Shown piece after piece: positions 3,201 through 40,200 of a stretch of 64,000 nt of DNA. The first letter of the stretch is position 1, and every line of letters begins with the position of its first letter. The notes under the pieces are model-generated. The model was not told the origin of the DNA. It saw only the letters and a program-made list of their open reading frames with translations, and did not search any database. The position numbers and the translations under genes are program-made. Where the stretch lies: contig JAQGDQ010000055.1 of the NCBI GenBank assembly GCA_030141605.1, forward strand, positions 124,001-188,000. The letters are read 5' to 3'. The stretch is from Tubiluchus corallicola. Taxonomy: Eukaryota > Animalia > Priapulida.

Positions 3201-3371
3201 TTGTGCATGTGTCTCTTTCGTGTGCATCTCTTGTGCATGTGTCTCTCATGTGTGCGTCATTTGTGCATGTGTCTCTCTCGTGTGCGTCATTTGTGCATGT
3301 ATGTCTTTCGTGTGAATCTCTTGTGCATGTGTCTCTCTCATGTGTGTCTGTTGTGCATGTTTCTCTTGCAT

Positions 3372-3415
<44 letters not shown>

Positions 3416-15400: not shown

Positions 15401-18400
15401 AATGATCAACATTGCCTAACTCAGAGTTTTTTCAGTCCGGTTGGATTTGGGTTATGCGGAGTTTACTGTATTATCTGATAGAAGTATTCATTATTGCCTT
15501 TTAACTAAATCACATCATTAAAATGCCCTATTTACTCACCGTCTGATGTCTTTAGTCAGACCCTTACTTATGACATTGTATATCGTGAAACAGTCTGTAT
15601 GTCATCATTCACTCTGTTGCTGTTATGGACACTTTGTTTCGATGATCCACTAACCTTTCTGTGGTTCTCAGCCCCATGGCTTCCGCCTTCACAGTAGGAT
15701 GAGTGCTGATTAATTGAAGCCATACTCTCTCTTTTTAGGATTCTGTTGTTGCCATACCTCTAGATGATTGGAGTTTGGATTACCTGAAGCCACACTTTCA
15801 ATGTATTAAAGGAGCAGACGGCTTGTAAGTGGGGAAGAAGCGATATGGTGTAACTAGCTGTTTATTAATAAAATATCATTTGATATCAAATGATATTAAT
15901 TTAATATCATTTGGCGTTATAAAAATGGCAAATAGCTAATGAAAGTGATTCTGTACTTAAACCATGATAGAATTACTAACACTAATTTCTAGACTAGCTG
16001 TTCATCTACCTCCATTATTTTTCTATGTATACGTTAATTTTCTATTCATATAGAAGTTCTTAGCTAATTAGTCATATCATTTTGAAATTAGAGTGATACT
16101 GGTATTATTTCTAGTAGTATAATTCCCCTATGCTTCATTAAAGGTATTTGTAGTTTAAACGCTTAACTAACAATCCAACTTTTCCATTTCAAACCAAATA
16201 CGTTTTTTCTATACATATCTTCTGGTCTGGAACAATCCCCTGTTTTATATGCGTATATTGCCCCACAGCAACATTTCTGACTGCAAAAATTTCGTTTTTT
16301 GAAAACTTGACTGTGAAGATCTACAAGTCACATTTACTTTATTTCTCATGCTTAAAACAAGTATTAGAAGCTATAATTTTTTATATTTTAGTATAATCGT
16401 CATAGCGCCTAACAACGTGCTTCCCGTTTTTAGCTAACCGTGCCTTTGCAGGTGTCAGGGAAATAACTTCCGATCATTTCCGAGTTCTTAGCTAATTAGT
16501 CATATCATTTTGAAATTAGAGTGATACTGGTATTATTTCTAGTAGTATAATTCCCCTATGCTTCATTAAAGGTATTTGTAGTTTAAACGCTTAACTAACA
16601 ATCCAACTTTTCCATTTCAAACCAAATACGTTTTTTCTATACATATCTTCTGGTCTGGAACAATCTCCTGTTTTATATGCGTATATTGCCCCACAGCAAC
16701 ATTTCTGACTGCAAAAATTTCGTTTTTTGAAAACTTGACTGTGAAGATGCTACACAAGTCACATTTACTTTATTTCTCATGCTTAAAACAAGTATTAGAA
16801 GCTATAATTTTTTATATTTTAGTATAATCGTCATAGCGCCTAACAACGTGCTTCCCGTTTTTAGCTAACTGTGCCTTTGCAGGTGTCAGGGAAATAACTT
16901 CCGATCATTTCCGAGTTCTTACAAGTTTGAAGTTGAAGCTGGTTACAATGCGGAACGGAAACTACCCATTTCAGACTATCCCGGGGAAGTCTTTGATCTA
17001 GATACCGGCCTTATTTACTTGGATGCAGACCAGGTGGGTTTAAGTCTACCTTTCTAACTGACGTTGATGCACCAACTTAACCATAATTGACACCCAAAGT
17101 GTTATATTTAGTTTTATTTTTAAAACAAAACTGTCATATCCTGGTTTTTTCATATCCCTACCCCATTTTGAAGTACAGTAAAATGTATACATTTTAATAA
17201 ATATAATAATGCCAAAGCATTCTGATAATTAAATAATAGGTTAAAAATTTAACTAACAGTGGGCAAGCCCACCTAGTGATGACGTCACAAACTAACATAA
17301 TTTTCAACAGCACAAACATTCCGTGAGCGACTTGAACACGTTTGTGAAAGCAAAAATTGATGTACAGTGCTACTGTAGAACATTTAGTGTAATATACAAA
17401 AACTCCACAAATTTTAAGATAAAAATTTAAATTTACCACTGTGCTCACGCATCATCTCTCGAACATGTGTAGTTTGTCACAAGCTAACACATCTGAACTG
17501 AGAAGTACATCACCTGTTTTTTGTGCAAAGTGTTTCTGAATTGCAAGCGCTAGTGCCCAGAAACGAATGGCAGAATGCATGTAACAGCAAAGAATAATAC
17601 AATTTAGGATTGGGTCCGGTTTTCCTTTAAGCTTTAATGTTTTTTGAAAATTATTGTATTTCGAGTATTATACAAGCAAAGATGTGCTTAGTAAACATCT
17701 GTCTATAGTTTCAACAGATTTATACTAAGCAATTAATGGCACAAATATCAACATTTTTTTGTGGTTTACATCTCAGTTTGCAATGAAAAAATATAATTTC
17801 TGTTAGTTTTCTTTTACTAAACTGACACATTTGAGATTCAGACCTGGGTTACAAACAGCACTGCAAGTTTTTCCATATTTTCTGCACAGGAACCGTTGGA
17901 CGTGACGGGAACTGTTACAAAGCGAGGCACATACAACTTCATTGTTCACTTCTATCAACCCAAATATCCTACGTTTGACGTTGATGTCACTGTTAACATC
18001 GGCGATGGCATTAGCATTCACGAAGGTATCAGTTTGAAAGCTTGTGTAGAAGCAGTAGAACTTTTGTTGTTTGTGATGCTTTAGGCGTATTTTCCACATT
18101 AATTTTCTGTACAAACTTCCTATGATAATTTTCATTTAAATTATCAATTATTGTGTAATGAATTGTTAGTTACTAAATTGTCAAAAATTATGGTTTTACC
18201 TTCTGGTTTTTGCAAAGGGTTTTCACAATTATCTTTACCTATTCACTTTCTGAAAATTCCAGCTTTCCTGCCCACACCGTTTTGCTCCGCTGAATCCGGT
18301 TGCCGAGCGATCATTGAGATGCCAAATGGAGAATTTGAGTTTGACATTGATGCCAACTTTACATTGACCTTCCTGGTGCCTGGAGAGAAAAGCATTTTCA

Positions 18401-21400
18401 TAGTATGTTTCATTTAAGATCAGCTTGTTTACTTTAACTCAATGCATTCTTTCAAATTTTTAGTTAATACATGTAATATTTTGATGCAATGATTCCAGTG
18501 GCGGCTCACAGCTAAAATTAGTGGGTGTGTTGCTTCAGAAAATGTTTAGCCGTTGTTTTGATACTGTGTAAAACAAAACAAATGTATGTAATTTTAATTT
18601 TATAATTTGTGATTATAATTTTAAACAAACAAACATACAAAAATTTATACATAAACTTAATAAAATCCTAAACAAAAAATTATTTTTTGCTTACTGATAG
18701 CCTAAATTGTCGCAGTTCAAGCTTGATCCATTCACAGTAAGCACATGACAACTAACAACAAACTTTGTGAGAGACAGTGCTTTCTCTGTCTGGGCTCAGA
18801 CATGTATGCATGGCCGCATGCGCACAACAGTCATACACTGCGTTGCTGGAGTGCACTGTGCTGGACTGTAAAGCAAACAGTACTACTCTCACATGCTCTG
18901 TTTCCATACAAGTATGAAAAAGAACTAAAGAAAAAAGACTTATTATATTGAATATTATCGATAATATCAAAAGAAAATATAGTGATATCTCAAGATACGA
19001 AATTAATTCGTTCAGAAGGGACTTTCGTATCTTAGAATTTTTGTGTTATAGATTTACCCTATAAGTGGCGTAATCCGTTCTAGTTCCCCCCTCGAAAACA
19101 GTCGTATAAAGTTACATGCTGTACCGACCCGAAAGAAATATGTTCGTTAATGACCAATCGTCGAAAGATTTCGCTCATACTCCTTTGTGATAGCACTTAA
19201 ACGCATGCCACTTTCATATTTAGCTATAATTTCAGGCTTTGTTTCCTTCGATATCATACTTTTCTTCTTATAATTACCACTGGCACTTGCTTTTTTCGGA
19301 CTCATGGTTATTGAATGCGTTCACGTGAGATAAGAGTACAACAAAGCATTCACGTGATGCTATGAAGTGCATTCTCGGAGGACCGCTGTCGGGCGGCACT
19401 TTCGATTTTCGTTTTCGCATCTTGAATATTTTTTCGTTAAATGGGAAGTAAATTTCTTCTAAGCCAGATTCGTATTAAGCATTTTTCGTATAATAGGGTT
19501 TTCATAAGTCAAGGTCCACTATAGGGGGTGCTGCAGTTCCATAGTACTTGAGCCGCCATTAAATGATTCGTAAAACCGTACAAGCCATTATACTGTAAAA
19601 TATCTTTCAGGATTATGTGCTAGCAGTGCCATCTACAGGTCAAAAACCAAACTTGGAAGAAGAGGGATCTGTGGACAAAAGTGCAAGGTTTATATCAGAC
19701 TGCATTGGCAACGACGACTTCAACATTGAGTATGTGTATTATTATTGCATACTAATCTGCTGACAACATTGAGTATGTGTATTATTATTGCATACTAATC
19801 TGCTGGCAACATTGAGTATGTGTATTATTTCTGTAGCTCATTGAAGCATTCATTTTCCTTCGAGTTTTTTCTGTTGCCAAAACTAGATCTTCGTCAGGAA
19901 GAGCCCTCTAATGGATTTAAGCATTAAGCATAACTTCAAATTGCATACTAATCTGCTGACAACATTGAGTATTTGTATTATTATTGCATACTAATCTGCT
20001 GACTACATTAAGTATGTGTATTATTATTGCATACTAATCTGCTGAGAACATTGAGTATGTGTATTATTATTGCATACTAATCTGCTGAAAACATTGAGTA
20101 TGTGTATTATTATTGCTTACTAATCTGCTGACGACATTGAGTATTTGTATTATTATTATATACTAATCTGCTGACAACGTTGAGTATGTGTATTATTATT
20201 GCTTAGTAATCTAATGACAAAATGATTATGTCTAAAGAATCTCACTTTTTGCAAATTTCACAAATTTTATTTACATGTGTGTGCTTTCAGACCAAAACCG
20301 TCCATAAGTCGGCATAGTTAAAACTACGTTATGATGCTTGAAAGTAGAATGCACCAAAATTTAGTCATATGCCAATTTTTTGTTCTTAAAAACAAATGCC
20401 AAATATAATGGACTTTTATATTCTACGATCAAGTTATCAAGAAAATGTTCAAAAAATACTAAAAATCTTATTTTGTAATCCTGTACCCATTTCTCGTGCT
20501 AGAAACTAGTACTTCAATTGTCAAAAAACTTGCATTTTCAAACTTGTATCAGATAGTAAGGTTGTTGAAGTATTCATTTTCGTTTGAGTTTTCTCTGTTG
20601 CCAAGCCCAGATCTTCGTCAGGAAGAGCCATTTACTGAATTTAAGTACTAAGCATAACTTCAATCTGCTCTTGCAAAGTCTGTAGCAACCAACATTTGTG
20701 TGGTTGGTAAGTGCTTTGTAGAAATGCGACAAAAAACAATGGCGAACTTTAACAGCAATTTTCTCAAGATTATGTTTTTCAGTGCGTAGCATGCACCTCA
20801 GCTTCAACGATTATCTTAGCTTACAAATAACATAGAGTGATGTACTTGGTAGCAAAATCATCTTCATGAAATGGAGATTCAGGATATGTGAATAACTAGA
20901 AAAATTAACCGACTTATGGATGATTGTGCTATGCAAGCACACATGTATATTTTTTACCTCGAGCTTAGGCTTAGTAATTTTCTGTAAATTAAATCATTAC
21001 AATGAAAAAGGTGTCAAAATAACCAAAGTTCCTTGAAACAAGACGAAGTTGTGTAAAGATCATGGTTTTTATTCATTCTATTATGCTATTATTATTTATT
21101 ATTATTATTTGTTATATTTGTTTAATTATTCTAAGAACTTCTCGTTAGTGTGCTATGTTTGTCATTGACATTTTTTTCAGAAAAATAACTATAGTTTGTG
21201 CTTTTACTCTGCTGTTTTGATTAGCCAAGCAACGAGTCTATTGTTATTTCTACTTAACATTTTAGCAAGCATGTCGGTAGTTGCTGCTTTTTGCTAATTA
21301 AAAATTTTAATGTTATTTTTTTTTAATTGTAATATTTCGTTTTGATAATTGTAGTCCTAACGTACAAGGCTGGTGTAGGGATGCCGTGTTCTCATTGACA

Positions 21401-24400
21401 ACAGATTACAACAATGGAGCATTACAATGTGACTGTAACATTGACGGGTCGTTGAGTTTCCAGTGCGAGGAATTTGGTGGTAGATGTTTCTGTAAGGACT
21501 ACGTGATTGGGCGAACGTGCTCCCAGTGCCAGTCCGGTTACTATGGATTTCCAGATTGCCAGTGTAAGCCACTTGATGACACGCAGAATTTTTTGTTTAG
21601 GCATGAAACTTGAGCGAATTGGTTTGCGATTTCTTTTATTTTATTTGTTTTTCTTAAAAATCTGTAAAAGTTAAAAGAAACGAATGGCTGTGATCAATTT
21701 ATTCTTTGTTTCTATCAGCCAGTATTAGATTTCTGCAATTTAGCACTTTGTAAGCCAATAGCCAGCAGTCACTGGGCATGGCGTAGTTAATAGTTTCATG
21801 ATTGCAGCGGGACTGGAATCTTTCTCATTTCTCTACAAAGAGACATCCGACCAGCAGAGACGTCTTAACCTTGTTTTGAAGTGATCTTCCCTCAGTGACA
21901 CAGCCAAAGGCAGTGTATCAGATTAAAGTGTTCTGAATCACTTTTCCCAGCAGTTACCCATCCATTTACTAACCAGGACTGATGTTATGTAACTTTTTAG
22001 GCTGGTACACCATGGCAGCCCAGCTATTTTTCTTCTCTCTTTCTCTCTCTCTCTCAAATAATGCATAAAAATCCTGTTGAACGTTTTGTTAAGGTGTTAT
22101 AGCTATCGGCCAGGCTATGTAATGATAAAATTATTATTATTAAAATAATATGATTAAGATAAGATTAAGATTAATGAACTTGTGCCATGGTTACAATCTG
22201 TGCACAAACTAAGTGTCATCCATAAGTGATTTTACAGGTTGTATGAATTAACACCTTGCGATAGTTTCGGCACTTTTGAGTCTGTATCGAAACCTTGCTT
22301 ATTTTTAAAAAGGTTTGCATAATTTTCAGAAACTGTTTTAAATTTTAATTTTGTTTTGTTTATTTTAATGTTTATATAACAATAGTAAAGTGTTCTACAG
22401 CATATAGACAGAGCAATATTAGTAGTGCTTTATAACTGTACTATAGTAAAGTAAAAAATTTAAAGTTGACTTAAAACTTCGGGGAATTAAACACAAATAG
22501 TGAACATTAGAGATGCAGTTAGTTATTTTCTTTAGCTTGTGACTGTCCAAATGGTGTCTGTGAGGAGACGACGGGAGCCTGCATTTGTCCTCCACATGTA
22601 ACAGGTGAACAATGCAACATATGTTTACCGGAAACCTTCGGTTACGATCCATTCATCGGGTGTGAAGAGTGCAAATGTGAGTTCTACGGAGTTGTGGATG
22701 GAAACATGGAGTGCGACCTCATTACAGGACAGTGCAAGTATGTACATTGATTTGTATGCTGACATTGCGATCCTTTAATCTCATTTGTTTAATCGTTGCT
22801 GTAGCAACCAGTTCTCGGTAAAATTGAGTAATACATAATTTTATGACACTTTTGAAGAAAAACCTGATGGGTGTTGCTGCAAAAAGGCATCCACTCATGT
22901 TCAAAATTTCAAATATTCCATTTTACAACTTCTTATATAGCAACGACTTATTTCAAATATGACAAACTTCTGTTTCTTTTTCACCTAATGACGCATGTCT
23001 CATTTATTGCATTTTATGCTCTAAGTCCCGAAATTTTGTTTGGTGCAAGTTCACATTTTGTAAAGAAGTCGCTACTAACGTCACAATGTAAGTATATGCT
23101 GTTGATTACAGGAGACTGTAAAATTTAATTCATTGTTAGTGCTTGCTTAAGTACCGTATATACTCGCATATAAGCCAAATTTAGAACTATAAAATACAAT
23201 ACTGAAATCAGGGGGTCAACTTATATGCGCATGAAACAAAATGAACACAAGGACAGACACATAATTAAACAGAAATGTTATAATTTTTTGTGAATAAATA
23301 GAAAACAAAATATTTTCTTCTTTATTCATATCAAAATGTATAATTTCTTCTATTTCTTCTAGTATGTAACATAAAAGTAAGCATTTTACATCTTTATAGT
23401 AAAAAATTTCCATGAACCAAAAATACCCAATTAACAAAATGTGACAAAAAGGGATCAATTTTGTTGATTGGTTATGGAGTAAAATTAGACAAGTTGATGG
23501 TCGGCTTATATACGGGTTTTTGCAAAAACTGGCCATTTTAAAGCAGTTTTAGGGGGTCGGCTTATATGCGATGTAGGCTTATATGCGAGTATATACAGTA
23601 GATGATTTGTCTTGTTTTTTGACCATTAGAATTTGATTATCTAATGTGTAGAAGAAGAAGAAAGACCCACATGCCCGATGAGTTTAGCATTGGAATAGAT
23701 GAATATGGCATCTATTTATGTTCCCTCAACACACAAGGATAGGTGGCTGGTCATCGCCCAGCCACCTTTCTTTCCCCAGTACATTACCGGGCACTTAACT
23801 GAGGTTGAGATGAGCTAGGAAGGTAGCCAGAGAGTCTCATATAAAAGTCCTATCACTAGAAACCTTTGGGTTGGCTTAAAACTCCATATACCACTAGGCC
23901 ACTGCTTTTAATATGTAGAAGTGGAGTTAACTGCATTCACTTACTTCTTCATAAATTGTATTCATGCTGTTGGAAAAACAATTCTGTATTATAAAAAAGT
24001 TTCTCAGCAAAATTACATGACTAGCATGAAACAGAGAAGAGAATCTTTCGTAAGAAATGAAATTATATATTTTAAAATTACTTAATGCTAGCAAAAGAGA
24101 GCAATATTTGTCTTAACTTATCCCAGGTAATAATAAAGACAGTTCAAAATTTTTTGTACAAGCTTCATAACATTTAAATAAAAATCCAAAACATGCAAAA
24201 TTACATTCACCCATAACTTCTGTTTTTAATTCTTCAACCAGAAGTCACTACACAAAAACACTCAATCTTATTAATTATGCGAACGGTCAATTTCGAATGA
24301 CCATCAACACATTACAAGAATGCAAAAAAACTAATCCAAGTAAGAAAGTGCAACACCAGCAAGCTCTTTTGCCGCCAGACTTAGTCAGAGCAAGTTGAAA

Positions 24401-27400
24401 GTTAATTAGCAAAAGGTTAGTTAATTAGCTGATTAATTTTTAAAAGCCTATATTTTTGAAGTTATTTGTGACTAGTGTTTCTAATTCATTATATGTGATC
24501 TACAAATGTATACCTATCAATTATCTGAGCAGCTTTTGTCACATTATTGGCTTTAATGAGTGAAAGTTTATCAATGCGCAATTGATTTTCAAAAGACTAA
24601 AATTTTGAAGCTATTCAGTTCTAATTCAGTGTACAACTTCTGTATTAATTTTTGCCTGAGTGATTGCAGACATATGAGAGAAAAACTAATTGTGTGGACA
24701 CTGGATGATGAATGTAAGATTCCGGAATGACATCTACTGTGACTGTATTTTTATTTTTGTGTTATCAGCTTTTACATTTATAACTCATCTCCATACATTA
24801 CATTATTTCTTATGAGAGGCGTGGCTTCATTTAAGAAGAGTTTGCTTAATAGTTCTTTTGCAGTAGGTGTATTAGCCACCGACCAAGCCAGGATTTACTG
24901 TGGTAGTTGTCAGAATCAAAGACTGGAGACATTGAGTTCATTTTAATGGAATAATGGCCAGATAGAGTAGAATAGCATAGAGTCCAGCAAGACCAAATAC
25001 TAGACGATAAATCGGACACTGTCTTGGTATAGAAATCATTATGTTTTATTCCTATGTTGCCACATTCCCACAACAGATGGCGTAGTTGTCAATGTTTTTT
25101 TGTAGCACAAAACGTTGTACCTATGCAGATGAATGCTTGTACCAACAGTGGTAAGCAGCAGTGCTGGCACTCCCACATATAAAGGAAGCCGCTTGTTAAC
25201 AATTATGCCAGTTAGCTGACATAACCTCCCAGTTAGTCTCCCACGACATATTCCATTATATGATGCATAATTATTGACGAAGACGCTGCATTGATATGCT
25301 TCTAGTATCATGAGCATATTGATTTCTGATCGTCTTTCGTGTAACCGATTAGATGTTAGCTTTACTTGGCCAGTGTAGAATCAGCTTAAGCAATACGCTC
25401 CCTTGCTAATTGTCTTAAGAAGTAGGACACTATTGGATAATATAGTCCCTTCGTTTGAAGCATTTTGTTTTTTGCCGTCTGTTAAAAGCACGAAATAATT
25501 CACTGAAATGGTACTGTTTTTCTGTCTCTTTTATAGTCGGTAATCTGCTTAGATATGTTGCTTTTAATGTGAAACTATAAGACAGGTGCTGCCCTCTCTG
25601 TATGCAGTGATTAGAGCATCACTATGAAAGGTGCTGATTCCATGGCTAGCTTTAGTGGATTTGTGTTAAGATTGTCACTATTTGATAAGCGCACATTCTT
25701 AACCCTTGCTTACTTTTCACGAATACATTAATGAGAAAATTGATTTCTTTGTATTAATTGAAGAAGAAATACTTTTCGCTGTTTTAAGCCTATAAACTCT
25801 ATAAATTTACGTTTGCAACCGTATAAAACAGTAAACATGATAAATGTTATTAGACATATAATCCCAATGGCAAATAGCAGTAATGCGCAAAAATTCCACA
25901 CAATGCCTTCGTAGCAAAATTTAATGATGTAAGAGAATGAAGACATCTTGGTTATTTCTTTATGATCCCAACACTGGAAGGTGAGGATTAAGCAACTAAA
26001 ATTTCTTCCATTTTTTAGTTCGTGCGTAAGATGTGATAATGTAGTTTTTAAATTTAATTACCAGCTAAAAGCCTGTAAATGTGCGAAAGATGCGGTTTAG
26101 TGCAAAAATGTCAAGATTGCATTTATGAGAATTTTGTGGATTAATTTAATGCTTAAACATATTATTAGCTGGAAAAATATAAGTTGGAACCTGTTACTAT
26201 TTTGTGTAGTAGCATGCCATGAGAATGCTACACAAACATTCTTGAGATACAATTAAATTCCATTGCTAGCGGCGTTACATTTCCATCGTTTCTCGTTCTC
26301 ATGAGTCTTCTTCAGGTCTGCTTCTCTGTGGAAGTCACTGATTGCTAGAGCATCGTTTTTTCTCGTTTGCAGTAGTAAATGTTGTGTGTATTTATTTATT
26401 TCGTCTTTATGCATGTGCAATGGGTGGATGAACGTTTCAGTTTCTGAAATATTACAAATTTAGCAATAACTAATCAATAAAAGTCGCAGGTGCATTTAAC
26501 TTTGTAATTTATATTCCTCCTTCAAGGTTCACCTGCTGATTACATAATTCACTGACAATTGATCCACGCTTCATTACCAAATGCAGATTTATTGTGCTGG
26601 CTAGCTAATAATACAATAACATCTCACAATAGCATAACTAGCTGGCTACATTTGGTTAATTCCTTGCAAAGTACTTAATTAGTGCTTGTGTTGATTGCGT
26701 GACTAAATTACGCCTCAGTAGCTGAACTGCATACATAATGTCCCATGCAAGTATGCATGAGAACAGTTTATATGCTGAAAATTACAGTCATTCTCAATCT
26801 AGTAATATACGTATTGGCATAATATGTATTTTAACACAAGTTTTTTTCAAATATTTTGTTATATAATACGTTTTTGAACCTGTGATGTTTAATAAATTAA
26901 AGCTTTTAAGCCACCACATTTTTCAATCAATGAAATTTTTTTGGAATAAAAGTCAGTGAATTCACTTGTTACTGGTTACATGAAAATTACAAATGTTGAT
27001 TCCACTGAAACAAGCATGAGTCACACGTGTGATTTTAGTGAGTTCATTTGCAGTTGTGTTAGACTAGTGTCTTTCGTATGCAGAGTATTTGCAGTTACAC
27101 TTCTGCGGACTAAAACAGCTTGTGAAGAGTAGTTTGAAGATTGTTGAAACCCTTTCTACTCCTTGGCTATAATCGAGTTATCTATTCTTGGCTTCATTTC
27201 ATACTGAATGGTCTTACAGTTGGTGTAATAACAAGCGCCAAGTGAGATTCTTATCAGCTGTTCTGGAATTAGCCTATTAATTTTGATGAAGTGACAATGA
27301 TACTCACTTTAAAGTTAATTAATCTTTTATTTTAAAAGCTCACACTTCCCATGGCAGTTTTAAGACATGTAGCAGCTAGTGGTGAGCAGTCTGCACCAGA

Positions 27401-29828
27401 AAGTGAATTTGAATCGAATCGAATTTGTGACTTTTAAATTTGAATCGAATTCGGATTGAGTTTGAAAGATTTTCAAACAAGTTTTCGAGCCACTAGTAAA
27501 AAGTGGCCTTACAAAGATCATGCATAGTACTTGATTTAGTTCTGCAGTAAAACCACTATAGTTTATTAAAAATTTTGCACAGAAACTGCAGCTAAATTGT
27601 GCTAATTGCATTCCGTTTCAAACATTTTAATGATAAAGAACTTATGTGGCTGAAGTGTTGAATTACTCGAATCTGTAAATTTAGGTTCGAATCGAATTTG
27701 AACGTTCGATGCTCACCCCTAGTAGCAGCCCAGTTCAGTGTTAGAGATGTTCTACTTCTCTCATAATGGCACTTCTTCACTTCTTGTCATAAATGAGTTT
27801 AAAGTCAACAAAATCATTTTGTCAATTTCTGTTCTTCAACTTTTATTGAAAGCAAAAACTGGCAAAATAATACTGAAAATTCACCAATAAATACATATGA
27901 ATCTTCAAAATAAAACGTAAGTTCGATTTGGTGGATTCTTGAACATAACATTAAAAAAAGCAAAATTTGCACAACTTGCTAAGATTAGCCAGTGGAGTAT
28001 TTAAAATGTTAGGCAAGATATTTATTGTAGAATTTCGTCAAACATTTAACAAAGCATGAAATATAGTTAACAACACACCTACTATATCATACTAATCATA
28101 AGCCACTTAAATGCCATGTATGAGAGCTTCACTGGCTAGAGATGATGAAAAGGTATTTCTGAGATTTTTAATACAACGATTTTCTATAATTATGGTAGTT
28201 TTTCTTTGTTATTTGTGCCTACCTTTTAGCCAGGTAAAATTGCACTTGCTAACACAAACACAGACACTTCGCAGTTTTGTTGAATGAATACATGTACAGC
28301 TTACGTTAATTTTGACTTTATGATTTCCCACTTAAGTGCTAGATCATTTTCACTTCAGTATACTTAATTTTTGTTTTTATGACACATTTTTTTACAAAAA
28401 TAATTTTTTCAATGCAGTTTGAAATAAATTTTGTTTGTTTGTTACTTTTTCTTACTGTCTCACTTCCTTCGATCAGCACGTTGGAGATTTTAGTAGCGCC
28501 GAATACTTCCTTTATTTTGCCAATGCCTCTCCTTTCTTTGCTCTTCATTTGTGCATCATATCTTGTTTTTACCATTTGAACTTTTATTTTGTAGATCGTA
28601 ATTTTTAGCGGTAGTAGTTGCCGTTTTTGAAAGTTCCTGGCTTTTACATTTTACAAGTCTTAATTTTACATACAGTACGCAAAAATTTCTCTGATATCGC
28701 AAGGTTTTGCACAGCACTCGTCGTATGCTCCACGGGTCACGCGCACCATCCCTGTACTCCGTCCTACCCTAAGAAAACTAAGCGCTGAGGGTCGATCTAG
28801 GAACGGTACCATGTTGTTCTGGTCGAACGCGTCAGTATCTTCGCCCCCTGGTTGATACCAGTCGTACGTGTCCCTGCTTTGAACATCATACACGTTTTTG
28901 CTACCTCCGTCATCTGCCAGGGAACGCTTGCCCTGATTGTTGAACTTCCCCCTGCAGACGAAACTGAACATTTGTGGTAACTTCTGACCGCACAACCGTG
29001 ACCGCGACGCGTGCACCTCGGCGATGACGACGATCATCATCAACAGCACACAACAACAGCCTGATTTTTGGCCACTCATATTTGGTCAGCCAAGTGATGA
29101 AATTTGTAGGTATTTGGCGGTACACGCGTCAGCGATGTGTGCCCAGAGGTTTGCTTGCTGCACACTTTTATGCAAGCTTTGTAAGTTTGTCAGATAGCAG
29201 CAGGAATTGAGCGCTACCACGCACAGAGGTAGTCATACTCATTGATTGATACATGTGTCGTAATGAAACTGAATACCAACAAGTACTAATTGCTTTGTCT
29301 AATATCCGCCCAATGTTCTTTGTCGGTAGCGCATCTGAATACGTCATTCCCTAAACTCAGCTATTTGCTTGGTTTGGCTTCTACGCATCATACATGCGTA
29401 ATCTATGTCTATGACAGGATGAAACCCTCGTGATTTGCTGGATTGCAAAGAATTGGAACTAGATTGGATTTTGTATTCAATGTTTTTTGTAATTCTAAAT
29501 TGCATATGATTTTTGGTGGTTTCTAGTAATTGCCTTGTTGTTCATCAGGGATCTTTCAAGCACAGTTATTTTTTTCAAGCTTCTTCCTTTTTTCATTTGA
29601 TATTTATTCAATGTCCATTTGTCTTACATTATTAAACTTTTTTGCAAGACTTTGGTCATTGTTACATCTCTCTTGTCATCATTTGCCCTTGTTTTTTATT
29701 TCGTTTCATCTTATCCTACCTTCTCTGTCTTCTCTTCACTTTTTTGTGTTTCTCTGTCTGTTCTTTCTCCTTTCCTTCTCTCCCTCCTGTCTCTCTCTCT
29801 ACTTCACTCCCTTCCTCCTCTCCCTTGC

Positions 29829-29883
<55 letters not shown>

Positions 29884-30070
29884 CTCTCTCTGTCTCTTTC
29901 TCTCTTTCTTTCTCACCCTCACTTTCTCTCACCCTCTCTTTTTCACCTTCACTCTCTCTCACCCTCTCTTTCTCACCCTCACTCTCTCATCCCTCTTTCT
30001 CACCCTCACTCTCTCTCTCTCTCTCTCACTCTGTCTCTCTTTCTTTCTCCCCCCTCTCTCTCTCTCTCTT

Positions 30071-30112
<42 letters not shown>

Positions 30113-31257
30113 CTCTCTCCTTTCTCTTTCTCTCTCTCTCTCTCGCAAATAAAAATTTTATACAAAACCTTTTTCGAAGGAAGCCACTTGCAAAGTAGAA
30201 ATTTTGACCAGGAATGGTTTTACAATGTGGAACGTGAAGTACAGAGTTTTCATATGAATGAAGTGACAGATAATGCTTTTAATCAACCATTTACTATGGC
30301 AGATGTAAAATTGGCTATTAAAAGATGAGAACTGTGTAATAAGGCTCTAGATAATGACGGTTGTCATCCTGCTTGTGCTAAAACATATGGGATTTTGGGC
30401 TAAAAGTCTGGTGATCAGTTTAGCAAATTTGTGCCTAGAATTGGGTGTATGGCCATGGCAAAAAACAAAAATTTCCTTTATTTGCAAATTCAAAAAGTAA
30501 TTTGAGAAATGTAGCATTAAGTGATTTTTCTTTTGAATATCTTACTGACAGCAAATTAGAAATAGAAAAATTTGTCAAAACTGTGTGGAAGAAAAAGACT
30601 CAATATTCAGAATAGATTGATGGTACGTCTGCAGATGTCATTTCACCTGAATTATCACCTCTAAACTTAGGGTTAAATAATCATGAACGTGATGCAGAAA
30701 TGACTGCACTTAATTTGTTGTTAAAAAGAGGCACACGCAGCCGACACGCTCTTTTCTGTATGTAGTTGGTGAAAGCAATACTGATTGTTGTAGTTGCGAT
30801 AATATATCTGTTCAAAAACCAGAACATCTAATTTACGTTAGTAAATGAAATAGATAGAAGGAATCTCATAATAATATTGCCAGCTATGGATTTGGGAACA
30901 ATCTTTACTGTAAGAGATAGGGGCACCAGCGACTTGTTTGGAAAAGTTGTACGAAATATTGTAAATACACAGATTTTGTCAAATTATCTCGTTTGTGGAT
31001 TTAAATTTTTTTTTATATTATGAATATAAAATACTTAATTTCGTTTTAATACTAGTGTTGTCATGTATGATCTTTAACAACTTTGTTTATCTGTCAGCTC
31101 ACATGTAAGAAATATCATATTATGTATATTTGTACATTAACTAGAACTGCTTTGAACTCTTGTCTTGTTATGATAACTTGCTTTGAAAATTATGTACATT
31201 TAATGTAAAATGTTATGTACTGCCTGCAAAATGAGGTATTTTTTTAAATAAAAGAGT

Positions 31258-31293
<36 letters not shown>

Positions 31294-34200
31294 CTCTCTC
31301 TTGTCTCCCCCCTGTCTCTTTCATGCCTTCCGTCTCTCATTCTCTCTGGAAACTTTAAACAGTCAACTCACTCTCCCGCCTACTCTCAGGCAATAACCTT
31401 TGATGATAGCTTAAGCACTTATAAGGTGTCTTGGTGCGGATTGTGCAACATTAACTAAGCTCATGAATCATACTGTTAATTACTCAGCTTGTAGCTACTA
31501 ACTACTACAATTTTCAGCAGTCCTATTATTATTTATAAGTAGGTTTTCAGTTATATAAAATAAAAATATTTTGCTCTGTCTATATGTACATATATACCAA
31601 GATGCTGTTGACGACCGTTATTGTTCATTTGAATTTGAGATAAAACCTAATAGTTAAACATGAAAGCAAAGCAACTATACAATGTGGAGATAGTCTGAGA
31701 TATTTTAAAGTGAAATGATGAGTCGATTGATGGCTTTTCATTTCTGTCCAGGCTTTTGATCTTTGGCATTATCTGGGTCTTAATTTAGTGCATTACAATG
31801 TTTTTACACACATTATATCCAAGATTTTGCATTTTCGCAGAGACCTCTTGACCACTTCCATCTCAGGTCTTAGATTTTTCCTGCATTAGTTTAATGTACT
31901 TGATACCAGGATGGTCAAAATTACAGCTTTGCTCAGTCCAAATAGCAGTAGGAATGACCTTGGCGTAAGGCCTAGGCCTGAGATCTTGACTTTTTCAATA
32001 AACTTGACTTTTTGTTCACAGCTATGTGAAATTTTAGATTAAATTCAATGCTAAAAAAGCAACCCTAACAATGATGATAATGACAACAATAATGACAACA
32101 GTTTGTGGCAACAATGATGAATAAGTTTTTATGATTTGCTATCATAATGGTGCTTTAAAAGGATGGCTTTGCTTTTTAGACAAATATGGTAATTTATAAA
32201 TAGTAAAATAGTAAACAACAAATAAGTAAATAAGTGTGTTGAAGTGAAGACTTCATTTAAACTTGCATATTCTCTGGAAGTTTTTTTGGACATTGAATAC
32301 TGATATCTTAAATTGTATCGTATTATACAGTCAGTTTATTGCTAAACGAATTTTTTGAAATTTTGGCAATTTACATTTTGAATCTTTTGAAAATCTGTCA
32401 AACATTTTTTCTTTCAGTTGTAAAGATCATGTTGTTGGTCGACAGTGTGACACTTGTGAGATAGGATTCTATGCTTACCCACACTGTGTTGAATGCTCGT
32501 GTAACTTGCAGGGCGTAACAGAGGAAATATGTGAGCAGGGAGATGGATCCTGTATATGTAAGGTGAGGACAAACAATGAATTTTTTGTTTTGAACTGAGT
32601 TTTAGTGCAAGGTCAGTGCTATATATAGTCGAGCAGCCGGTAACTTAGGTTCTAACCTATCTAGGTTGGTGACTAACTTAAAATAATGTTTTTTTTAATT
32701 TCCAGTTCGTTACTTTTAGCGTAATAATATGTCGAGCAGCAGGAGACTTGATTTCTATCTAGGTTGGTGACTAACTTAAAATAATGTTTTTTTTAATTTC
32801 CAGTTCGTTACTTTTAGCGTAATAATATGTCGAGCAGCAGGAGACTTGATTTCTATCTAGGTTGGTGACTAACTTAAAATAATGTTTTTTTTAATTTCCA
32901 GTTCGTTACTTTTAGCGTAATAATATGTCGAGCAGCAGGAGACTTGATTTCTATCTAGGTTGGTGACTAACTTAAAATAATGTTTTTTTTAATTTCCAGT
33001 TTGTTACTTTTAACGTAATAATATGTCGAGCAGCAGGTGACTTGATTTCTATCTAGCTGAATTAATGTGCTAAATAATGCACTTAATCTGTGATGGTGTA
33101 AGTGGGATGTGCGCTGTTGATCTGGTGAACATCCTGTTTTATCCCTAATAAAAATTTCGTAGAAGCTGACAATGTCACCCTTCTAAATTTGTATGGGTGA
33201 GAGCAAACAACAATGAAAAACTACGAAAATTATAACATTAGATAATAAGTTTTTAATGTAAATCGTTTAGAAAATACCTTCACTTCGTATATTTTATACG
33301 TAGATTATTTTGTACTATGGTTGAAAATTGGATACAGTTTTTGTTTAAACCAGCCCAGCTTTGCTGTTACATTCTACCACTGTAGTTCGTGTACTCAAAT
33401 GAATTTCTCTTGTTGCTAATTACACTGTCTAGCTAACTTTTTGATTACACCGGCTTGTGTAGAATTCCTGCGAAGCTTTTCTATGTGCCTTGATCAAGCT
33501 AATTTGTTTTTTATGGACCATTGTATCCTAAAAGCCGCTTGAGACTCGTTCATTCATTCAGACTAGTGTAAGAACAGCTATGTCAATACGACAATGCTGC
33601 AGCAGTGCTACATGCAAATAGCGCCTTTGTAAACACCATACCTTTGTGTTGACAAGTTGACAAAATATCAGGAAATGAATATCAAGTGATGCAGAAACAG
33701 ATTTCCTGTTACCTAGTGATACGGTTTCATACGGTTAATGTTGTGCAGTAGTATGTAGTCTCATTACTTCTTCGGGTGGTCTGTATTATGCTGAGTTTAT
33801 TTATAATTATAGCCACTCGTATGTGCCTTTTCATGGTGTATCATGCACAGGAATTGCCCTACTCATTATTTGCATATGGCAAAATTGACAGTTAATGTTC
33901 TAGCAAAAGCATAGTAATTGAAACCGAAATTAATATTGCAGCATTAAAGATAAAATAGGTTCTATATAAAATAGCAAATTCAGTTAACTCAATTTAAATG
34001 AGCAATATTAATTTGTGGCTTCATGTACCCCTGATGCCCAGTTTCACATGAAGCCAAGGACAACATTTGCATGAATTTCAAACGAGCTAATAAAATTTAC
34101 TTTCCAAACAAGACGAGGTCTCCGGACTTATTATTCTGAAACATAGTTAAGATCATAATGTTTGGCAGAGAAAATAACATCATAACCTGGCTTTCAAAGT

Positions 34201-37200
34201 GTTGATAACTAAATATAAAAAAAATCATTAGTATACATTACAAGTTTGCCACATTTCTATAACATATTATTATCTGTAAGAGTTATTCTTGTAGTTTTGT
34301 TGTATAGTGATTGTAAATTAGTAATAATCATCAGAAATGATTTTGTGAAGTTCATATACAATATGCTTTGATCCTATTGAATCATAATGCTAAAACAAAA
34401 TATTATTTAACATTTCTGTGTTTTTAATAGTAAAAACGTCATATCTTCTACAAAATAAAGTTTTTGCTATAATGAGTAATGGGCGTGAAGCAAACATTTA
34501 CAGTTAGTACTTACAAACTATGAAAAAGTCATACGTGTCTAATTGGCTGGATTTTCTTAGAGTTGCTCGTATTTTTAGACAGGCATACTGTTGCAATAGT
34601 TGCGAGGAGCTAATTTAGTGTCAAATGATTGCAATATTACATGTTAAGTAATGTGTTATTCTTTTCTTAAAGTTTTGCTGAGGTTAGCAACATTGTTGTT
34701 AGCTTGCTTCTGTTAAAGTTTTGCATATTTGTTTTATTAAGGAAAACGTGGAGGGTGAACGGTGTGATGCTTGCACTGCTGGCTCTTATAATCTCGAGGA
34801 AGACAACTTCAAAGGCTGCACCAGCTGCTTCTGTTTTGGAATAACAAAGTCCTGTTCCAGTTCTGATTGGGCTTTGGTCGAGGTAATTACCTGCTGCAAA
34901 GTCTGTGCGTTTAGCTATATATCTTATGCATTTTAAACCATCACTAGCTGAGTCCATCCACACTGTGGGTGTTATTTTGAATGCCACCGTGTGGTGTGTC
35001 ATATTCGGATAGAGTTGGAATGTTGATATTTGAACTTGAGACCCCCTAAAATTTCTGAAAAAACCTTTGATGACTATATCCAGTGGAATATCCTATAAAG
35101 TTGATATTTTGGGTGCAATTTTGACCACCATATTAAAGGGGACAGTCCAAGTGGTGAAGTCAACATTCGAAACCGGGAACACCTCTAAACACGACATTTT
35201 GGCACTATATATATATATATATATATATATATGGTAGAGTGTCCTAAAAATGCTATTTGAGTGCCATGTTTGCTGGGATGACCTACATTGATAGTAGCTT
35301 AAACACTTCTGGTACACTGCATTTGGGGGGTCTGCTGCTGGGGACTATTTTGATGTGTATAAATCAAACAGAAACACAGAGCCATTCATCTTTGTGCATT
35401 TACGAATACTAGACAACTTATTTCTTTGCCTGAAATTTTGTAAGTTATATGTTAGCCAACAAAGTGGTCGAAAGTGGTATTTTATTTTTGCATCCTTTGC
35501 AAATCTTATTTTATTTTTGCAAATCTTATAATTTTATTTTTTTGCTTCATTTATATCTGTGTAGAGAGACACTATTTTTGTACAAGTAGTATGCTCATTG
35601 CTATAGAATATGCTCAGGTAACATTTTTTCACAAACTAATTTCATTTCTAAAGGCAGCAGCACTATATATGCATGCTTCAAAGTTATTTCAATCTTTTAA
35701 GTTTAAAGTTTATTAAAACTCTTGTAACCTGAAGGGTAAATTACATTGCATTAATTAAGATAAACTGAGGTTTAACAATTAAATTACACTTAAAAGATAA
35801 TAATTTATGTTAAAAATAATTTTATTAAAACTCATTATTATAATATCTCGTGTCACAGTGTACACTTGTAGTAATGAACTTACTGATAATTAAAAAGTGC
35901 ATATGGTATAAAACTACTTTTAAAACATTCAGTACGGCAAAGAGGTAAAGGGTGCATCAGTTGTTTATGAAGATTGTGCTTAAGGGGGTTGAGTTTAGGT
36001 AATAAATAACGGAGTCTACTGTCTTGGTTTTGAATTGATTTAAAAAATTTCTTACAAAATTCATTTCTACATACAGATAAATTTTCAATTTTTGATAGCT
36101 GCAAAGCATCTACGTAAGGTGTGCAGGGGAAAATTAACTTCAAAATACGTTTTTGAATTGACTCTAGTAACTTTGTCTGTTCTAATGTTAAAGAAGTATG
36201 CCATGCAGGACAAATGTACTCCAATATTGGTCTTATTAAAGTACAATAAATAGCATTCATGTCTTTCTGAGAAATACCTGCTCTCGTTAAGTTTTATTAA
36301 GTAAATACGTTTGCAGGCTTTTTTGTGTACCTCTTCAAATCTTATAGTGTCAAACACAATCTTTTTTCAGATAATAGACATGGAAGGTTGGAATGTGACC
36401 AATCTTGTTGACCCTAGAGTAGATAACTATGGTGAAATGATTAGGGTACTCGTGTTGAATGCAGGTATTGATGTTCCCGAGGAAGCGTCATACTGGGTTG
36501 CTCCGGAAAGCTACCTTGGCAACAAGGTATTAAATGTTGCCTTACCGTATCTTTTATAGCATATAAATAAAAAAATAATTTAGTGTTGATGTTGTGTAGA
36601 TTTACTGTTCATCAAGCAAATATGCTAATGTTAACTGTTGAGTGAGTTTTGCATTAATTTGGAAATTTCTTGCTTTGGCTAGCTGAATATTCTGACCAAT
36701 GCGCGTTTATCAGCCGAGCAGCAGTGCACAGTTTTGTCCATTTTGTATTCTTGCCCCCAAGGAACATTACTTGTAAGATTATGGAAATGGCATGTATCTA
36801 ATAACGTCTAGCATCTTGTTGTCAACACATGAAACTAATGAACAAGTTAATTAAACGTTCTGTGCTTACCACGAATTTTACGTTCAAGTTATCATAAGCT
36901 AATATGCTCATGTATACTTAATTGCCTTGTTGTACTTGAAAATCAGTACCTAAACCATTGCGTTTTTTAAAACTTTTGAAAATACTTTGCTTGATTTTGC
37001 CGTTTTTTAATGTTTTTGTCATATTATTGCTTAGCATAGCAGGCCAAAAGTAGGAGTTTTTGGGTTCGAATCCCAGTCGCAGTGCAGAATTTTTGAAACT
37101 TGCTAATTTAGTATTGCTTGTTTCACGTTTATTGGATCGCTAATCATTGATACCTGCATGAATAGTAGAAAATTTAACACCTTGAACTCTTTTCTACATT

Positions 37201-40200
37201 ACATTGTTTACCTAGGTCACTTCCTACGGAACAAGGTTAACTTACACCATTCTACACATGCTGCCTGAGGACATGGATACATATAGAGTCATCACCGCTG
37301 ATGTCATACTTACAGTAAGTTTTCGTGTGTGAAGTTCAAATTTTAAGTTACACTAAGCAATTACTCTTATAGGGATAAACAATTTGTATCAGTGATTTGA
37401 ATAGCCTGTGGTCATGTGAAGACACTGTTTATCACATGTCTTAAAGTAAAAGCCCAGAAATTAATCGATTTTGCTTACGCCAATTGCTTTATATATGCAA
37501 TTCAGCGATCGTGCTGTCATTCACTGGTGACGTCATGGCAGGACTCTTGAAAAGACTGCCACCACTGCTTGTTGCTTTAGTACATCTATCTGCTACACAA
37601 ATTACACAACACAAAAACACACTTCTGTACTTCCAAAAAGTTTAACGTGCGACAGCTCGTCGGCCTGATGGGATAAGTAAACAAAACACAGGTGCAGACA
37701 TCCCTTAATGCTTTTCGGACTGTCATCCTTATCCTGCCAGGACATCACTCACTACATGTAACCGAAGTTTGGCGAGTGCAGATACAACACCGCAAATGCT
37801 CAAATTGATGAGATGTAACATGTTTTATTAATTAATTCATGTAGTTGCACGCATAAAAACTGGTGTATTCGATTTAATTATTTCTTTTCTGCTTAAGTTG
37901 TTGGTTTTCATATTTATAAAAATGACTCGGCATTTACTTTATAATCCTAGTATATGTTCAACTTGTCTTGTTGCATAGATTGAACAGTAGCAATTTTGTT
38001 ATTGTTATCATTCGATTCCTGTAGGATGAACATTAGCTTGTATATTTTTTTGTCATTTGTGGCTGTGTTTTATGCAGGGTCGCAACATGTCGCTGTTTTT
38101 TACGAATTTCGACCAACCAGAGCCGAATAAGGAAATGGAACTTGGCGTAAAGCTTGTTGAGGTGGGTTTCTATGATTTTTTCATTTGCAGAGATACACAT
38201 GTAGCATTCTACTGCAGGACTAGAGTTATTACTTTCTTTATAATTGTCTTATTTTAAAGCAAAACCGGACCCAATGTTAAACTGTAGGTCAAAACAACCT
38301 GTTATTTAAAATATTGAAAGTAAACATACTATTTTTTAAAGAATGACTTACGTTTAAGAATTACCACTCAAATGCAATTTCGCGTTCGTGCCACTAGTTC
38401 TTGCTGTTACATGCATTTCGCCATGGGCACTAGCGCCTGCATTTCGGAAAGTGTTGCACAAAAACAGGTGCTGTACTCTCAGTGCAGATATGTTAGTTTG
38501 TGATGAACTGCACACATTCTGCAGGTCATCCATGCACACAGCGGTAATTTAAAAATTCAATTTTTATCTTAAAACTTGCAGGGTTTTTTAAACAACACAG
38601 TGAATGTCTTACAGTACCACTGTACTCCAAGTTTCGCTTTCACAAACACATGCAACACGCTCGTGGAATATTTTTGCTGTTGAAAATTATGTTAGTTGTC
38701 ATCAATAGTTGGGCTCATCTGCCATCAATTAAGTTTTTAATCTATTATTTGATTATCAGAAATGCTTTTGCAGTATTTATTGTGTTAAAATGTATACTAT
38801 TTAGCGTACTTGAAAATGGGGTAGTATATGAAAAATCGTCCTGTCTTCCTTTAAGTTTAAATTTATGGTAATGCAGCAGTGTCTTGTGTTACTGATGCAC
38901 TTCTTGTGATGGCTTCCTTAATCAGACTTCACTGTTTCTACATTAGTCCAATGTAATCACGGTCGAAGCTTGTTAAAACGCCAGGTCTGAGACACCACTA
39001 TATATGGCGGGGTTGGCGGTAAGGCGAGCTTCATCAACTGTCAAAGCGTAGTGTTGTGCAAGTCGATTTTGTTTCCTAAGCAATTTTTATATGTGATAAA
39101 TAGGTGGAGTGTAGAGTATTATTATACCTATGTGTTACACTACACTGTTTTGCTGCGTTAACAATGCAGGTGTAGTTTTCGATACCTTGCAAAACCTTTA
39201 CATGACACAACATGGAGAAGCACTCTTGTGAAATGCTAATAATTAGCCTACTGCTGATAAGAGAAATATGCAGCCAGGTGACCCACCCATAACGTAACAT
39301 TACTGCACAATTAGACTATAAATAGCTGCCGCTAACTTGACATTGAGCCATAACTTGACATTGAATGCCGCACGTAACCTGACCTTGAACAAACAGCAGT
39401 TTTAACAACTTTTAAATTCACATCAGTTCAGTACTAAAGCTTACATACACAACTCTTGTACTCTTAAAACGCATGCTCCTTGCTCAAAACCTTAATATTC
39501 ACTTTCATACAGTCACTTGGTATGAAACCTAAATCTTAACTTAAACACCATAATTGCTTTGCTGTTCAGAGGTCATTGTTTTTACAACACATTGGCTGTT
39601 TTTCAGCTGTAATTCATTGTGCTTTATCTTGGCTGGCATTACAACGGGGCGGGGGGAGGGAGGTATAATGAAATTCGACTGTAAATAGTTAAGTTATAAT
39701 TTATAAAGATAAATAGAGATAAAAGATAAATAACAAAATACGTGTTTCTTTCGCCCTGATGAGGAGAAATTATTCCAATGGTAATTTGGAAATAAACTGT
39801 TTAATTATTAACCATATGTGATAGATGAGGCCTTGGTTCCTTGTAGGCATCAAGTCCCAGTTTGCCGTTCAATTTTTTCACTGTTTTTGTTCCATTCAAT
39901 TCAATTCAAAAGGGTTTATTTATCTCGAATATAATATTTATGGTGCAAATGCAACAAATTATGTAAAGTGTGTAGAGATTATTCAATTATGGAAGTTCTA
40001 TGTCTTTCTTAGAACTTAATGAAACATATTATTAATAAAGTGTATGCACTTACGCATCCGTAGTAGGTTCAAATGGTGTTCACTGAATTGTATTTTACAG
40101 ACTAACTTTGTACACGCTGATGGTACTGAAGCTACGAGAGAACAGTTGATGATGGTCCTGTCTCATCTGGATGCTTTGCTGATCCGTGCCACATATTATA

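What the first reader, a model, noticed from the sequence alone, without database searches (positions are those of the whole stretch)
28666..29079. Complete insulin-like peptide gene nested antisense in the largest intron of laminin alpha
Seen: an intact 137-aa prepropeptide with signal peptide, B chain (C-X11-C), KR and RVTR cleavage sites and a 21-aa A chain (CC-X3-C-X8-C). It lies on the strand opposite laminin, inside the 9.7-kb intron 22738-32417, several times longer than any other intron here. Established: this is the six-cysteine insulin-superfamily signature, and VCRGKFN plus R-x-T-R-G-x-[YF]-DECC resemble locust LIRP and related arthropod neuroendocrine IRPs. Inference: a growth/metabolic hormone gene hosted by a basement-membrane gene, with possible co-regulation or transcriptional interference. 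Nested ILPs are known in other hosts, but I do not know of a described laminin-alpha/ILP pair. Such small nested genes are easily missed in annotation.
Basis: partly seen in the sequence, partly recalled or inferred. Interest (0 to 1): 0.9.

Follow-up and report, generated by a model that had tools for sequence, protein, structure and literature searches.

The report
Intronless insulin gene inside laminin intron
An intact insulin-like hormone reading frame with no intron in its coding part sits backwards inside the longest intron of a laminin gene, likely in a little-studied moulting invertebrate outside the arthropods; it is likely a relocated passenger copy of an ordinary kind, not a partner of laminin.

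Summary
Window 28666-29079(-) is an intact 137-aa insulin-family precursor (Pfam PF00049, E 9e-8). It lies in a 9,680-nt GT-AG intron of a laminin alpha (alpha3/5, LanA type) gene, 4.4 times the next-longest of 48 introns. A contig from another run carries the spliced join across this intron.

(1) The coding sequence lacks the phase-1 C-peptide intron typical of insulin-family genes, so this is probably a derived, relocated copy. (2) The laminin tree puts the host outside crown arthropods, most likely in another ecdysozoan lineage, so 'LIRP-like' is a generic resemblance to short neuroendocrine peptides, not orthology.

Best reading: a secreted two-chain growth hormone-like peptide acting on an insulin receptor kinase, hosted by laminin as a passenger. 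Expression, conservation of the nesting and any co-regulation were not shown. Nested (dilp5) and intronless (bombyxin) insulin-like genes are both in print; my searches found no laminin-alpha pairing. Verdict: new member of a known kind, modest interest.

The parts
28666..29079 (-). Insulin-like prepropeptide coding sequence, 137 aa, single coding exon
   Evidence: no in-frame phase-1 donor/acceptor pair inside it among scored sites
29008..29079 (-). Predicted signal peptide, residues 1-24
   Evidence: hydropathy peak 3.4 at residues 10-20; helix 7-24 in the model; cleavage point inferred
28930..29007 (-). B chain, residues 25-50 (C30, C42), ending in Gly before KR, a possible amidation signal
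   Evidence: amidation inferred from the general Gly-Lys-Arg rule (recalled)
28924..28929 (-). KR convertase site, residues 51-52
   Evidence: consensus from PMC8286064 passages
28744..28923 (-). C peptide, residues 53-112, with a conserved Pro-Phe tail (P92) and a second R-x-x-R site (RVGR, 104-107)
   Evidence: P92 present in at least 90% of 56 aligned sequences; helix 96-101
28732..28743 (-). RVTR cleavage site before the A chain, residues 113-116
   Evidence: several homologues have the same motif; it is R-x-x-R, not the strict K/R-x-K/R-R furin consensus
28669..28731 (-). A chain, residues 117-137 (CC-X3-C-X8-C, Y135)
29165..29172 (-). TATA-like box (CATAAAAG) about 90 nt upstream of the ATG; no other ATG lies between it and the start
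   Evidence: seen; upstream ATG list; promoter role inferred, untested
28021..28026 (-). One of three AATAAA candidates within 650 nt downstream of the stop (others start at 28588 and 28516)
   Evidence: which is used, if any, is unknown
28339..28650 (-). 103-codon Lys/Ile-rich open frame in the same frame as the peptide, behind three stop codons; relic C-terminal extension or chance
22738..32417 (+). Host intron, 9,680 nt, GT-AG, phase 2
22536..22737 (+). Laminin alpha exon upstream of the intron (laminin EGF repeats)
   Evidence: 8 of 8 listed X2 differences are synonymous third positions
32418..32562 (+). Laminin alpha exon downstream of the intron
1..63331 (+). Laminin alpha (alpha3/5, LanA type) gene, 49 exons in the window, running off both ends
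   Evidence: colinear with a profile of 18 laminin alphas; Pfam EGF_laminin, Laminin_II, Laminin_G

Best explanation
This is an intact, single-coding-exon gene for a short insulin-like peptide that is likely secreted as a cleaved two-chain hormone and likely sits in the laminin intron as an independently transcribed passenger. Shown: the open frame, the six-cysteine signature, the cleavage motifs, the lack of a coding intron and the antisense intronic position. Inferred by family rules: the signal peptide is removed; three disulfides form (C30-C123, C42-C136, C122-C127); convertases cut at KR and RVTR and release the 60-aa C peptide; the A/B dimer leaves neuroendocrine cells and activates the insulin receptor tyrosine kinase to promote growth or reproduction. 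Inferred origin: a copy that lost the ancestral C-peptide intron, most simply through an mRNA intermediate, and became fixed in this intron with its own promoter. The intron is long because it holds this gene and several repeats.
For: Family: Pfam hit above cut-off. All 64 hits except two unrelated long proteins (P0012, P0052) are insulin-like by their sequences. Six Cys and Y135 are invariant, and G31, P92, G117 and E121 nearly so, in 56 aligned sequences. The model has the B helix and two A helices; all 19 listed Foldseek rows are insulin/IGF chains but weak (best E 0.95), best VIA Z 5.7. Short neuroendocrine type: KR site, long C peptide, one residue after the last Cys, no F domain, six Cys in the mature chains. 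Not decayed: no stop or frameshift; G+C 0.51 against 0.32-0.34 in the intron flanks; CpG o/e 1.17 against 0.73 in laminin exons and 0.43-0.58 in the intron; 31 CpG, more than in any of 636 sliding 414-nt windows. An X1 contig spanning 27979-29812 has 5 substitutions and 1 gap, none in the coding part (about 1 in 5 by chance, so weak, and X1 may be the source sample). Derived state: PMC8286064 says all insulin genes it examined have a phase-1 C-domain intron; PMC11863921 shows the same intron across relaxin/dilp8 and dilp7 genes. Passenger status: dilp5 lies in an intron of CG33205 (PMC2829060); host and nested expression is often uncorrelated (PMC3240667).
Against: No transcript or peptide evidence for this gene was obtained. 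No orthologous locus was found, so neither dN/dS nor conservation of the nesting was tested. Retrocopy hallmarks are missing: no A-run of 8 or more in 26500-30200 and only 9-10 nt chance-level direct repeats across the flanks, so intron loss in place followed by a DNA-level move fits as well. No parent gene could be sought because no genome is held. The receptor is assumed; relaxin-type peptides with the same layout use GPCRs (PMC8286064 abstract). Two core positions differ from most homologues (Ala after the A-chain Gly; Phe in the B helix where most have Leu/Met). The in-frame downstream open stretch is unexplained.
Confidence: 0.7

Rival explanations
1. IGF-type gene: the insulin core is one exon and a basic C-terminal extension is added by splicing or read-through, or was cut off recently; the 103-codon frame behind the stop is its trace.
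For: PMC7357564 (section read) warns that ignoring a donor after the A chain makes aIGFs look like short peptides, and notes that Apis and Aedes aIGF lost the core intron. A GTATGT donor word lies in the last Cys codon (28673), the commonest host donor (8 of 47). The in-frame 103-codon stretch has 27 K+R and two Cys, and 11 of 20,000 shuffles give one as long in that frame (post hoc).
Against: The 28673 donor scores 4.4, below all 47 host donors (lowest 5.0) and matched by 346 of 3,334 background GT sites. None of the 9 downstream acceptors scoring 6 or more keeps the Cys. No GTVxPxF/Y motif on the - strand of the window. The K+R share (0.26) equals what composition gives (0.27). No Pfam family reached its cut-off on the stretch. 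A long C peptide with a KR site is unlike aIGF.
Confidence: 0.1
2. Recent, silent retrocopy or duplicate (young pseudogene) that has not yet decayed.
For: No coding intron; no expression shown; a decayed LINE-like piece lies in the same intron (by eye).
Against: No poly(A) tract or target-site duplication, which a young retrocopy should keep. CpG-rich coding part inside a CpG-poor gene body. TATA-like box and AATAAA sites at sensible distances.
Confidence: 0.1
3. Functional pairing: the hormone gene and laminin are co-regulated or interfere by convergent transcription, coupling growth signalling to basement-membrane synthesis.
For: Only the antisense nesting itself.
Against: Nesting of insulin-like genes in unrelated hosts is known (dilp5); host and nested expression is often uncorrelated; the missing intron points to a lineage-specific arrival.
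Confidence: 0.07
4. Relaxin/gonadulin/dilp8-type ligand acting on a leucine-rich-repeat GPCR.
For: The B chain follows the signal peptide directly, as in relaxin/dilp8 precursors. Two of the three best Atlas feature hits are chordate INSL5 and INSL3 clusters (0.94). The tree weakly joins it to two annelid 8-Cys peptides (98/75, unstarred).
Against: Sequence hits are mostly insect and chelicerate short insulin-type peptides. The best PDB sequence match is the DILP1 A chain (E 9e-4). The first Atlas hit is an arthropod ILP5-type cluster (0.95).
Confidence: 0.08

Closest known systems
Short neuroendocrine insulin-like peptides of arthropods (sirps: cockroach ILP2, LIRP-like, DILP1/2/5)
   Same: Signal-B-C-A layout, six Cys, dibasic site after B, R-x-x-R before A, conserved Pro-Phe C-peptide tail; 34% identity over 110 columns to Blattella ILP2.
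   Different: Only 28-46% identical to any hit; no resolved orthology; host likely not an arthropod; no C-peptide intron.
Bombyxin genes of Bombyx mori
   Same: Insulin-like genes mostly without introns (PMC8276055 passage).
   Different: Bombyxins form clusters of pairs and triplets; here one copy in 64 kb (one A-chain pattern in six frames), inside a host intron.
Drosophila dilp5 in an intron of CG33205
   Same: Insulin-like gene nested in an unrelated host gene (PMC2829060 figure legend).
   Different: Different host gene; no laminin pairing found in my searches.
Priapulus caudatus insulin-like genes (LOC106807820, LOC106810466, LOC106810835)
   Same: Insulin-family genes of a non-arthropod ecdysozoan, listed in a supplement of PMC11863921.
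   Different: They span 3.4-8.4 kb, so probably hold introns; their sequences were not readable here and were not compared.
Arthropod IGF (aIGF, dilp6 type)
   Same: Insulin core; core intron lost in Apis and Aedes.
   Different: No short C domain, no supported extension exons, no GTVxPxF/Y motif.

Membership tests
Insulin/IGF/relaxin superfamily | Six Cys: B C-X11-C, A CC-X3-C-X8-C | tested here: met
Insulin/IGF/relaxin superfamily | PF00049 above gathering cut-off | tested here: met
   33.4 against 23 bits
Insulin/IGF/relaxin superfamily | Insulin fold (B helix plus two A helices) | tested here: met
   helices 33-42, 118-124, 129-133; fold matches all insulin/IGF but weak: E 0.95 or worse, Z 5.7, rmsd 3.4 over 57 residues
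Insulin/IGF/relaxin superfamily | N-terminal signal peptide | tested here: met
   hydropathy and predicted helix only; no SignalP
Insulin/IGF/relaxin superfamily (gene structure) | Phase-1 intron in the C domain (typical; absent in most bombyxins) | tested here: not met
   continuous ORF; the only phase-1 donor in the C domain (28904) has no in-frame acceptor scoring 3 or more. A derived loss with precedent, not a bar to membership
Short neuroendocrine ILPs (sirps) | Convertase sites around a long C peptide | tested here: met
   KR 51-52, RVTR 113-116, 60-aa C peptide
Short neuroendocrine ILPs (sirps) | No D/E extension after the sixth Cys | tested here: met
   one residue then stop; no supported splice to an extension; caveat
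Short neuroendocrine ILPs (sirps) | Expression in neuroendocrine cells | not testable with these tools
   no tissue data
Short neuroendocrine ILPs (sirps) | Signals through the insulin receptor tyrosine kinase | not testable with these tools
   needs a receptor assay
LIRP orthologue | Groups with LIRP-type peptides in a tree | tested here: inconclusive
   61 rows, 105 columns, no starred set holds it; locust LIRP itself was not among the named rows
aIGF / IGF | Short uncleaved C domain | tested here: not met
   against PMC7357564
aIGF / IGF | Basic extension and GTVxPxF/Y exon | tested here: not met
   exons beyond the window not excluded
dilp7 orthologues | F domain and phase-2 intron between signal peptide and B chain | tested here: not met
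   first Cys 5 residues after the predicted cleavage; no intron
Octinsulin / 8-Cys IRPs | Eight Cys in the mature chains | tested here: not met
   six; the three other Cys lie in the signal peptide
Retrogene | Loss of the parental coding intron | tested here: met
Retrogene | Poly(A) remnant and target-site duplication | tested here: not met
   these decay in old retrogenes (recalled)
Retrogene | Intron-bearing parent elsewhere in the genome | not testable with these tools
   no genome held

The most novel reading that the evidence does not exclude
A short neuroendocrine insulin in an early-branching ecdysozoan that arose from an IGF gene by retroposition and truncation, with the old basic E-domain still readable as the in-frame 103-codon stretch behind its stop. 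That would be a direct snapshot of the proposed repeated origin of short insulins from IGF.
Probability: 0.08. Interest if true: 0.65.

Novelty: new member of a known kind. Interest (0 to 1): 0.3.

Why it matters
It adds an easily missed hormone gene from what is likely a poorly sampled ecdysozoan lineage. Short neuroendocrine insulins are proposed to have arisen independently from IGF in several lineages (PMC8286064; bioRxiv 10.1101/2022.12.10.519892). An arthropod-like short peptide with the same C-peptide tail outside arthropods bears on whether they are older than arthropods. The laminin host is probably incidental, but gives a handy syntenic marker for finding and dating orthologues.

Tried and rejected
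Expression: no RNA holder listed for 28300-29400. Run X2 (RNA is a guess; 7% divergent in the laminin exon) gave no cover of the peptide gene at 90% likeness; this is no evidence either way. A closer look at the reads over the gene at lower likeness was not obtained, so expression, paralogues and dN/dS stay open. No genome is held. Word-based homologue search with the peptide: 6 candidates, none significant. Metagenome scan: 1 locus from 50 stretches, L001, a chance match in bacterial-looking DNA with no insulin ORF; rejected. Sea-spider host, my first guess from the Tachypleus hit, which is biased by a 2,000-aa cap: rejected by the tree. Hidden C-domain intron: the strong acceptor at 28768 is out of frame with the phase-1 donor at 28904; in frame only with phase-2 donors that would delete the conserved Pro-Phe motif. 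A 33-nt mini-intron joining the A chain to the downstream frame: donor score 1.4, no pyrimidine tract, shortest host intron 136 nt. Other coding genes in the intron: 0 of 14 frames reached a Pfam cut-off. tRNA: none. The bootstrap laminin tree did not finish; one search is the quick mixture-model tree. The Atlas did not answer for the downstream frame. Print searches for a laminin/ILP pair: 0 papers; one listed, none mentioning laminin; one listed, unrelated by title and abstract. The library lacks most subscription papers, and bioRxiv supplements and two FASTA supplements of PMC11863921 could not be read. Earlier scan notes: nothing.

Full report
Observation. The - strand frame 29079-28666 gives an unbroken 137-aa protein. 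It has a hydrophobic N-terminus, B-chain Cys 30 and 42, KR at 51-52, RVTR at 113-116 and a 21-aa A chain with CC-X3-C-X8-C. It matches Pfam Insulin above the curated cut-off (33.4 against 23 bits, E 9.3e-8). None of 500 dinucleotide shuffles of the intron gave the full pattern. It is the only A-chain pattern in the six frames of the window.

Host gene. A profile of 18 laminin alphas aligns colinearly along the + strand over the whole window. My model has 49 exons and 48 introns; 46 of 48 are GT-AG and two boundaries are approximate. The joined exons read open for 1,970 codons, well past the intron in question. Intron 22738-32417 is 9,680 nt; the next longest is 2,179 and the median 947. No profile positions are skipped across it. 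A contig of run X2 covers exon 22569-22737 at about 93% identity and continues with the first 14 letters of the exon at 32418. All 8 listed differences (of 12) are synonymous third positions. So the intron is real and the peptide gene is nested antisense in it.

What kind of peptide. HMMER over 1.84 billion representatives gave 64 hits at 28-46% identity; all but two long unrelated proteins are insulin-like. I looked up 30 of the 64; 21 carry species names: 14 insects, 4 chelicerates, 2 annelids, 1 starfish. In an alignment of the query with 55 of the hits, the six Cys and Y135 are invariant, and G31, P92, G117 and E121 nearly so. P92 lies in the C-peptide tail, so the resemblance extends beyond the mature chains. 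The predicted model has the B helix and both A helices (mean pLDDT 70, pTM 0.41). Its fold matches are all insulin/IGF chains but weak. The layout fits short neuroendocrine peptides. It fails the tests for aIGF (short C domain, extension), dilp7 (F domain, phase-2 intron) and octinsulin (eight Cys), as described in PMC7357564 (passages and one section), PMC8286064 (passages) and PMC11863921 (passages). A tree of 61 rows (four of the 65 left out: two unrelated, one tandem, one long) resolves nothing for it; the nearest join is to two annelid peptides, unstarred. LIRP orthology is therefore not shown.

Host animal. The window's laminin is 35-48% identical to 46 panel sequences (43 chosen from the 120 listed, plus three), with no close relative. 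In 24-row IQ-TREE runs, arthropods (SH-aLRT 99-100) and lophotrochozoans (99) form clades without it. It joins nematodes plus arthropods at 95 under LG+G4 and 99 under the mixture model, where it is sister to both (93; quick search, no bootstrap). AU tests reject a place with chelicerates (p 4e-5), mandibulates (8e-5), nematodes (0.012) and, weakly, lophotrochozoans (0.041). They do not reject sister to all arthropods (0.32) or deuterostomes (0.073). The host is most likely a non-arthropod ecdysozoan, such as a priapulid-grade animal or an onychophoran. The panel held no named member of those groups, nor annelids or chaetognaths, so this is an inference from one gene.

The missed feature. The coding sequence has no intron. 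PMC8286064 states that all insulin genes it examined have a phase-1 intron in the C domain, and PMC11863921 shows the same intron in relaxin/dilp8 and dilp7 genes. A splice-site scan trained on the host's own introns finds no in-frame phase-1 pair in the C domain. The host keeps a dense intron set in laminin, so the loss is specific to this gene. Retroposition is the simplest cause, but no poly(A) tract or target-site duplication remains and no parent could be sought. Precedents exist: most bombyxin genes lack introns (PMC8276055 passage), and Apis and Aedes aIGF lost the core intron.

Is it alive? Indirect signs only. The frame is intact. G+C is 0.51 and CpG o/e 1.17, against 0.73 in laminin exons and 0.43-0.58 in the intron flanks, and its 31 CpG exceed every one of 636 sliding windows. 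That suggests an unmethylated island in a methylated gene body (inference). A TATA-like box and AATAAA sites flank it. One X1 contig spans the locus with six differences, none in the coding part; chance gives this about one time in five, and X1 may be the source sample. No transcript evidence was obtained.

Mechanism. Shown: the anatomy. Inferred from family knowledge: signal removal, three disulfides, cleavage at KR and RVTR, possible amidation at the Gly before KR, release of an A/B dimer and action on the insulin receptor kinase in growth or reproduction. The last step follows what is described for insect short peptides (bioRxiv 10.1101/2022.12.10.519892, passages). The laminin link is probably incidental: dilp5 is nested in an unrelated gene (PMC2829060, passages), and host and nested genes often show inverse or no correlation (PMC3240667, passages).

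Loose end. A 103-codon Lys/Ile-rich open stretch starts 15 nt after the stop in the same frame, behind three stops. Eleven of 20,000 shuffles give one so long in that frame, and 14 of 7,131 intronic stop-bounded segments are as long; the test is post hoc. Its K+R share is what composition predicts, Pfam gives nothing above cut-off and no credible splice joins it. It may be chance or a relic IGF-type extension; this is the novel case.

Novelty. Three print searches found no laminin-alpha/insulin-like pair (listings only; most subscription papers are not held). Three Priapulus caudatus insulin-family genes are listed in a supplement of PMC11863921 (file 1, part 4 read); their sequences were not readable. 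A priapulid neuropeptide survey (bioRxiv 10.1101/2024.07.20.604414, passages) showed no passage on priapulid insulins; its tables are images and its supplements are closed. Each ingredient (short peptide, intron loss, nesting) is known; the combination and the host group are new as far as I could check. Verdict: new member of a known kind, interest 0.3.

Noticed in passing
window 6540-6658 (+): Full-length 5S rRNA match (Rfam RF00001, 104 bits, E 9e-22) inside laminin intron 6284-6915, same strand as laminin; a single copy, gene or pseudogene unknown.
   Followed up: partly
window 23152-23600: MITE-like element with 25-nt terminal inverted repeats (96% complementary); very high contig depth in X1, so probably high-copy.
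   Followed up: partly
window about 30150-31292 (+): Decayed, truncated LINE-like piece ending in a (TAA)n run, next to the GA microsatellite at about 29790-30145; judged by eye from recalled motifs, no Pfam hit.
   Followed up: partly
window 27979-29812: One X1 contig spans the peptide locus at mean depth 57, against 12-13 for contigs over laminin exons and 4-6 for several intronic ones; it ends 42 nt after an AATAAA. X1's kind is unknown and contig depth cannot show expression or copy number, so this is unexplained.
   Followed up: partly
window 28339-28650 (-): 103-codon Lys/Ile-rich open frame in frame with the peptide, behind three stops.
   Followed up: partly
window 11837-12142 (+), 35880-36293 (-), 62810-63367 (-): Further retroelement-like fragments in laminin introns; the first has a weak RVT_1 match (E 1.4e-4, below cut-off), the other two resemble each other by eye.
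   Followed up: no
window 27400-27722: High-copy repeat just beyond the 3' end of the peptide gene (many X1 contigs with loose ends).
   Followed up: no
window 41500-42100, 19000-19500, 11000-11500: Other CpG-rich patches, partly intronic; not identified.
   Followed up: no
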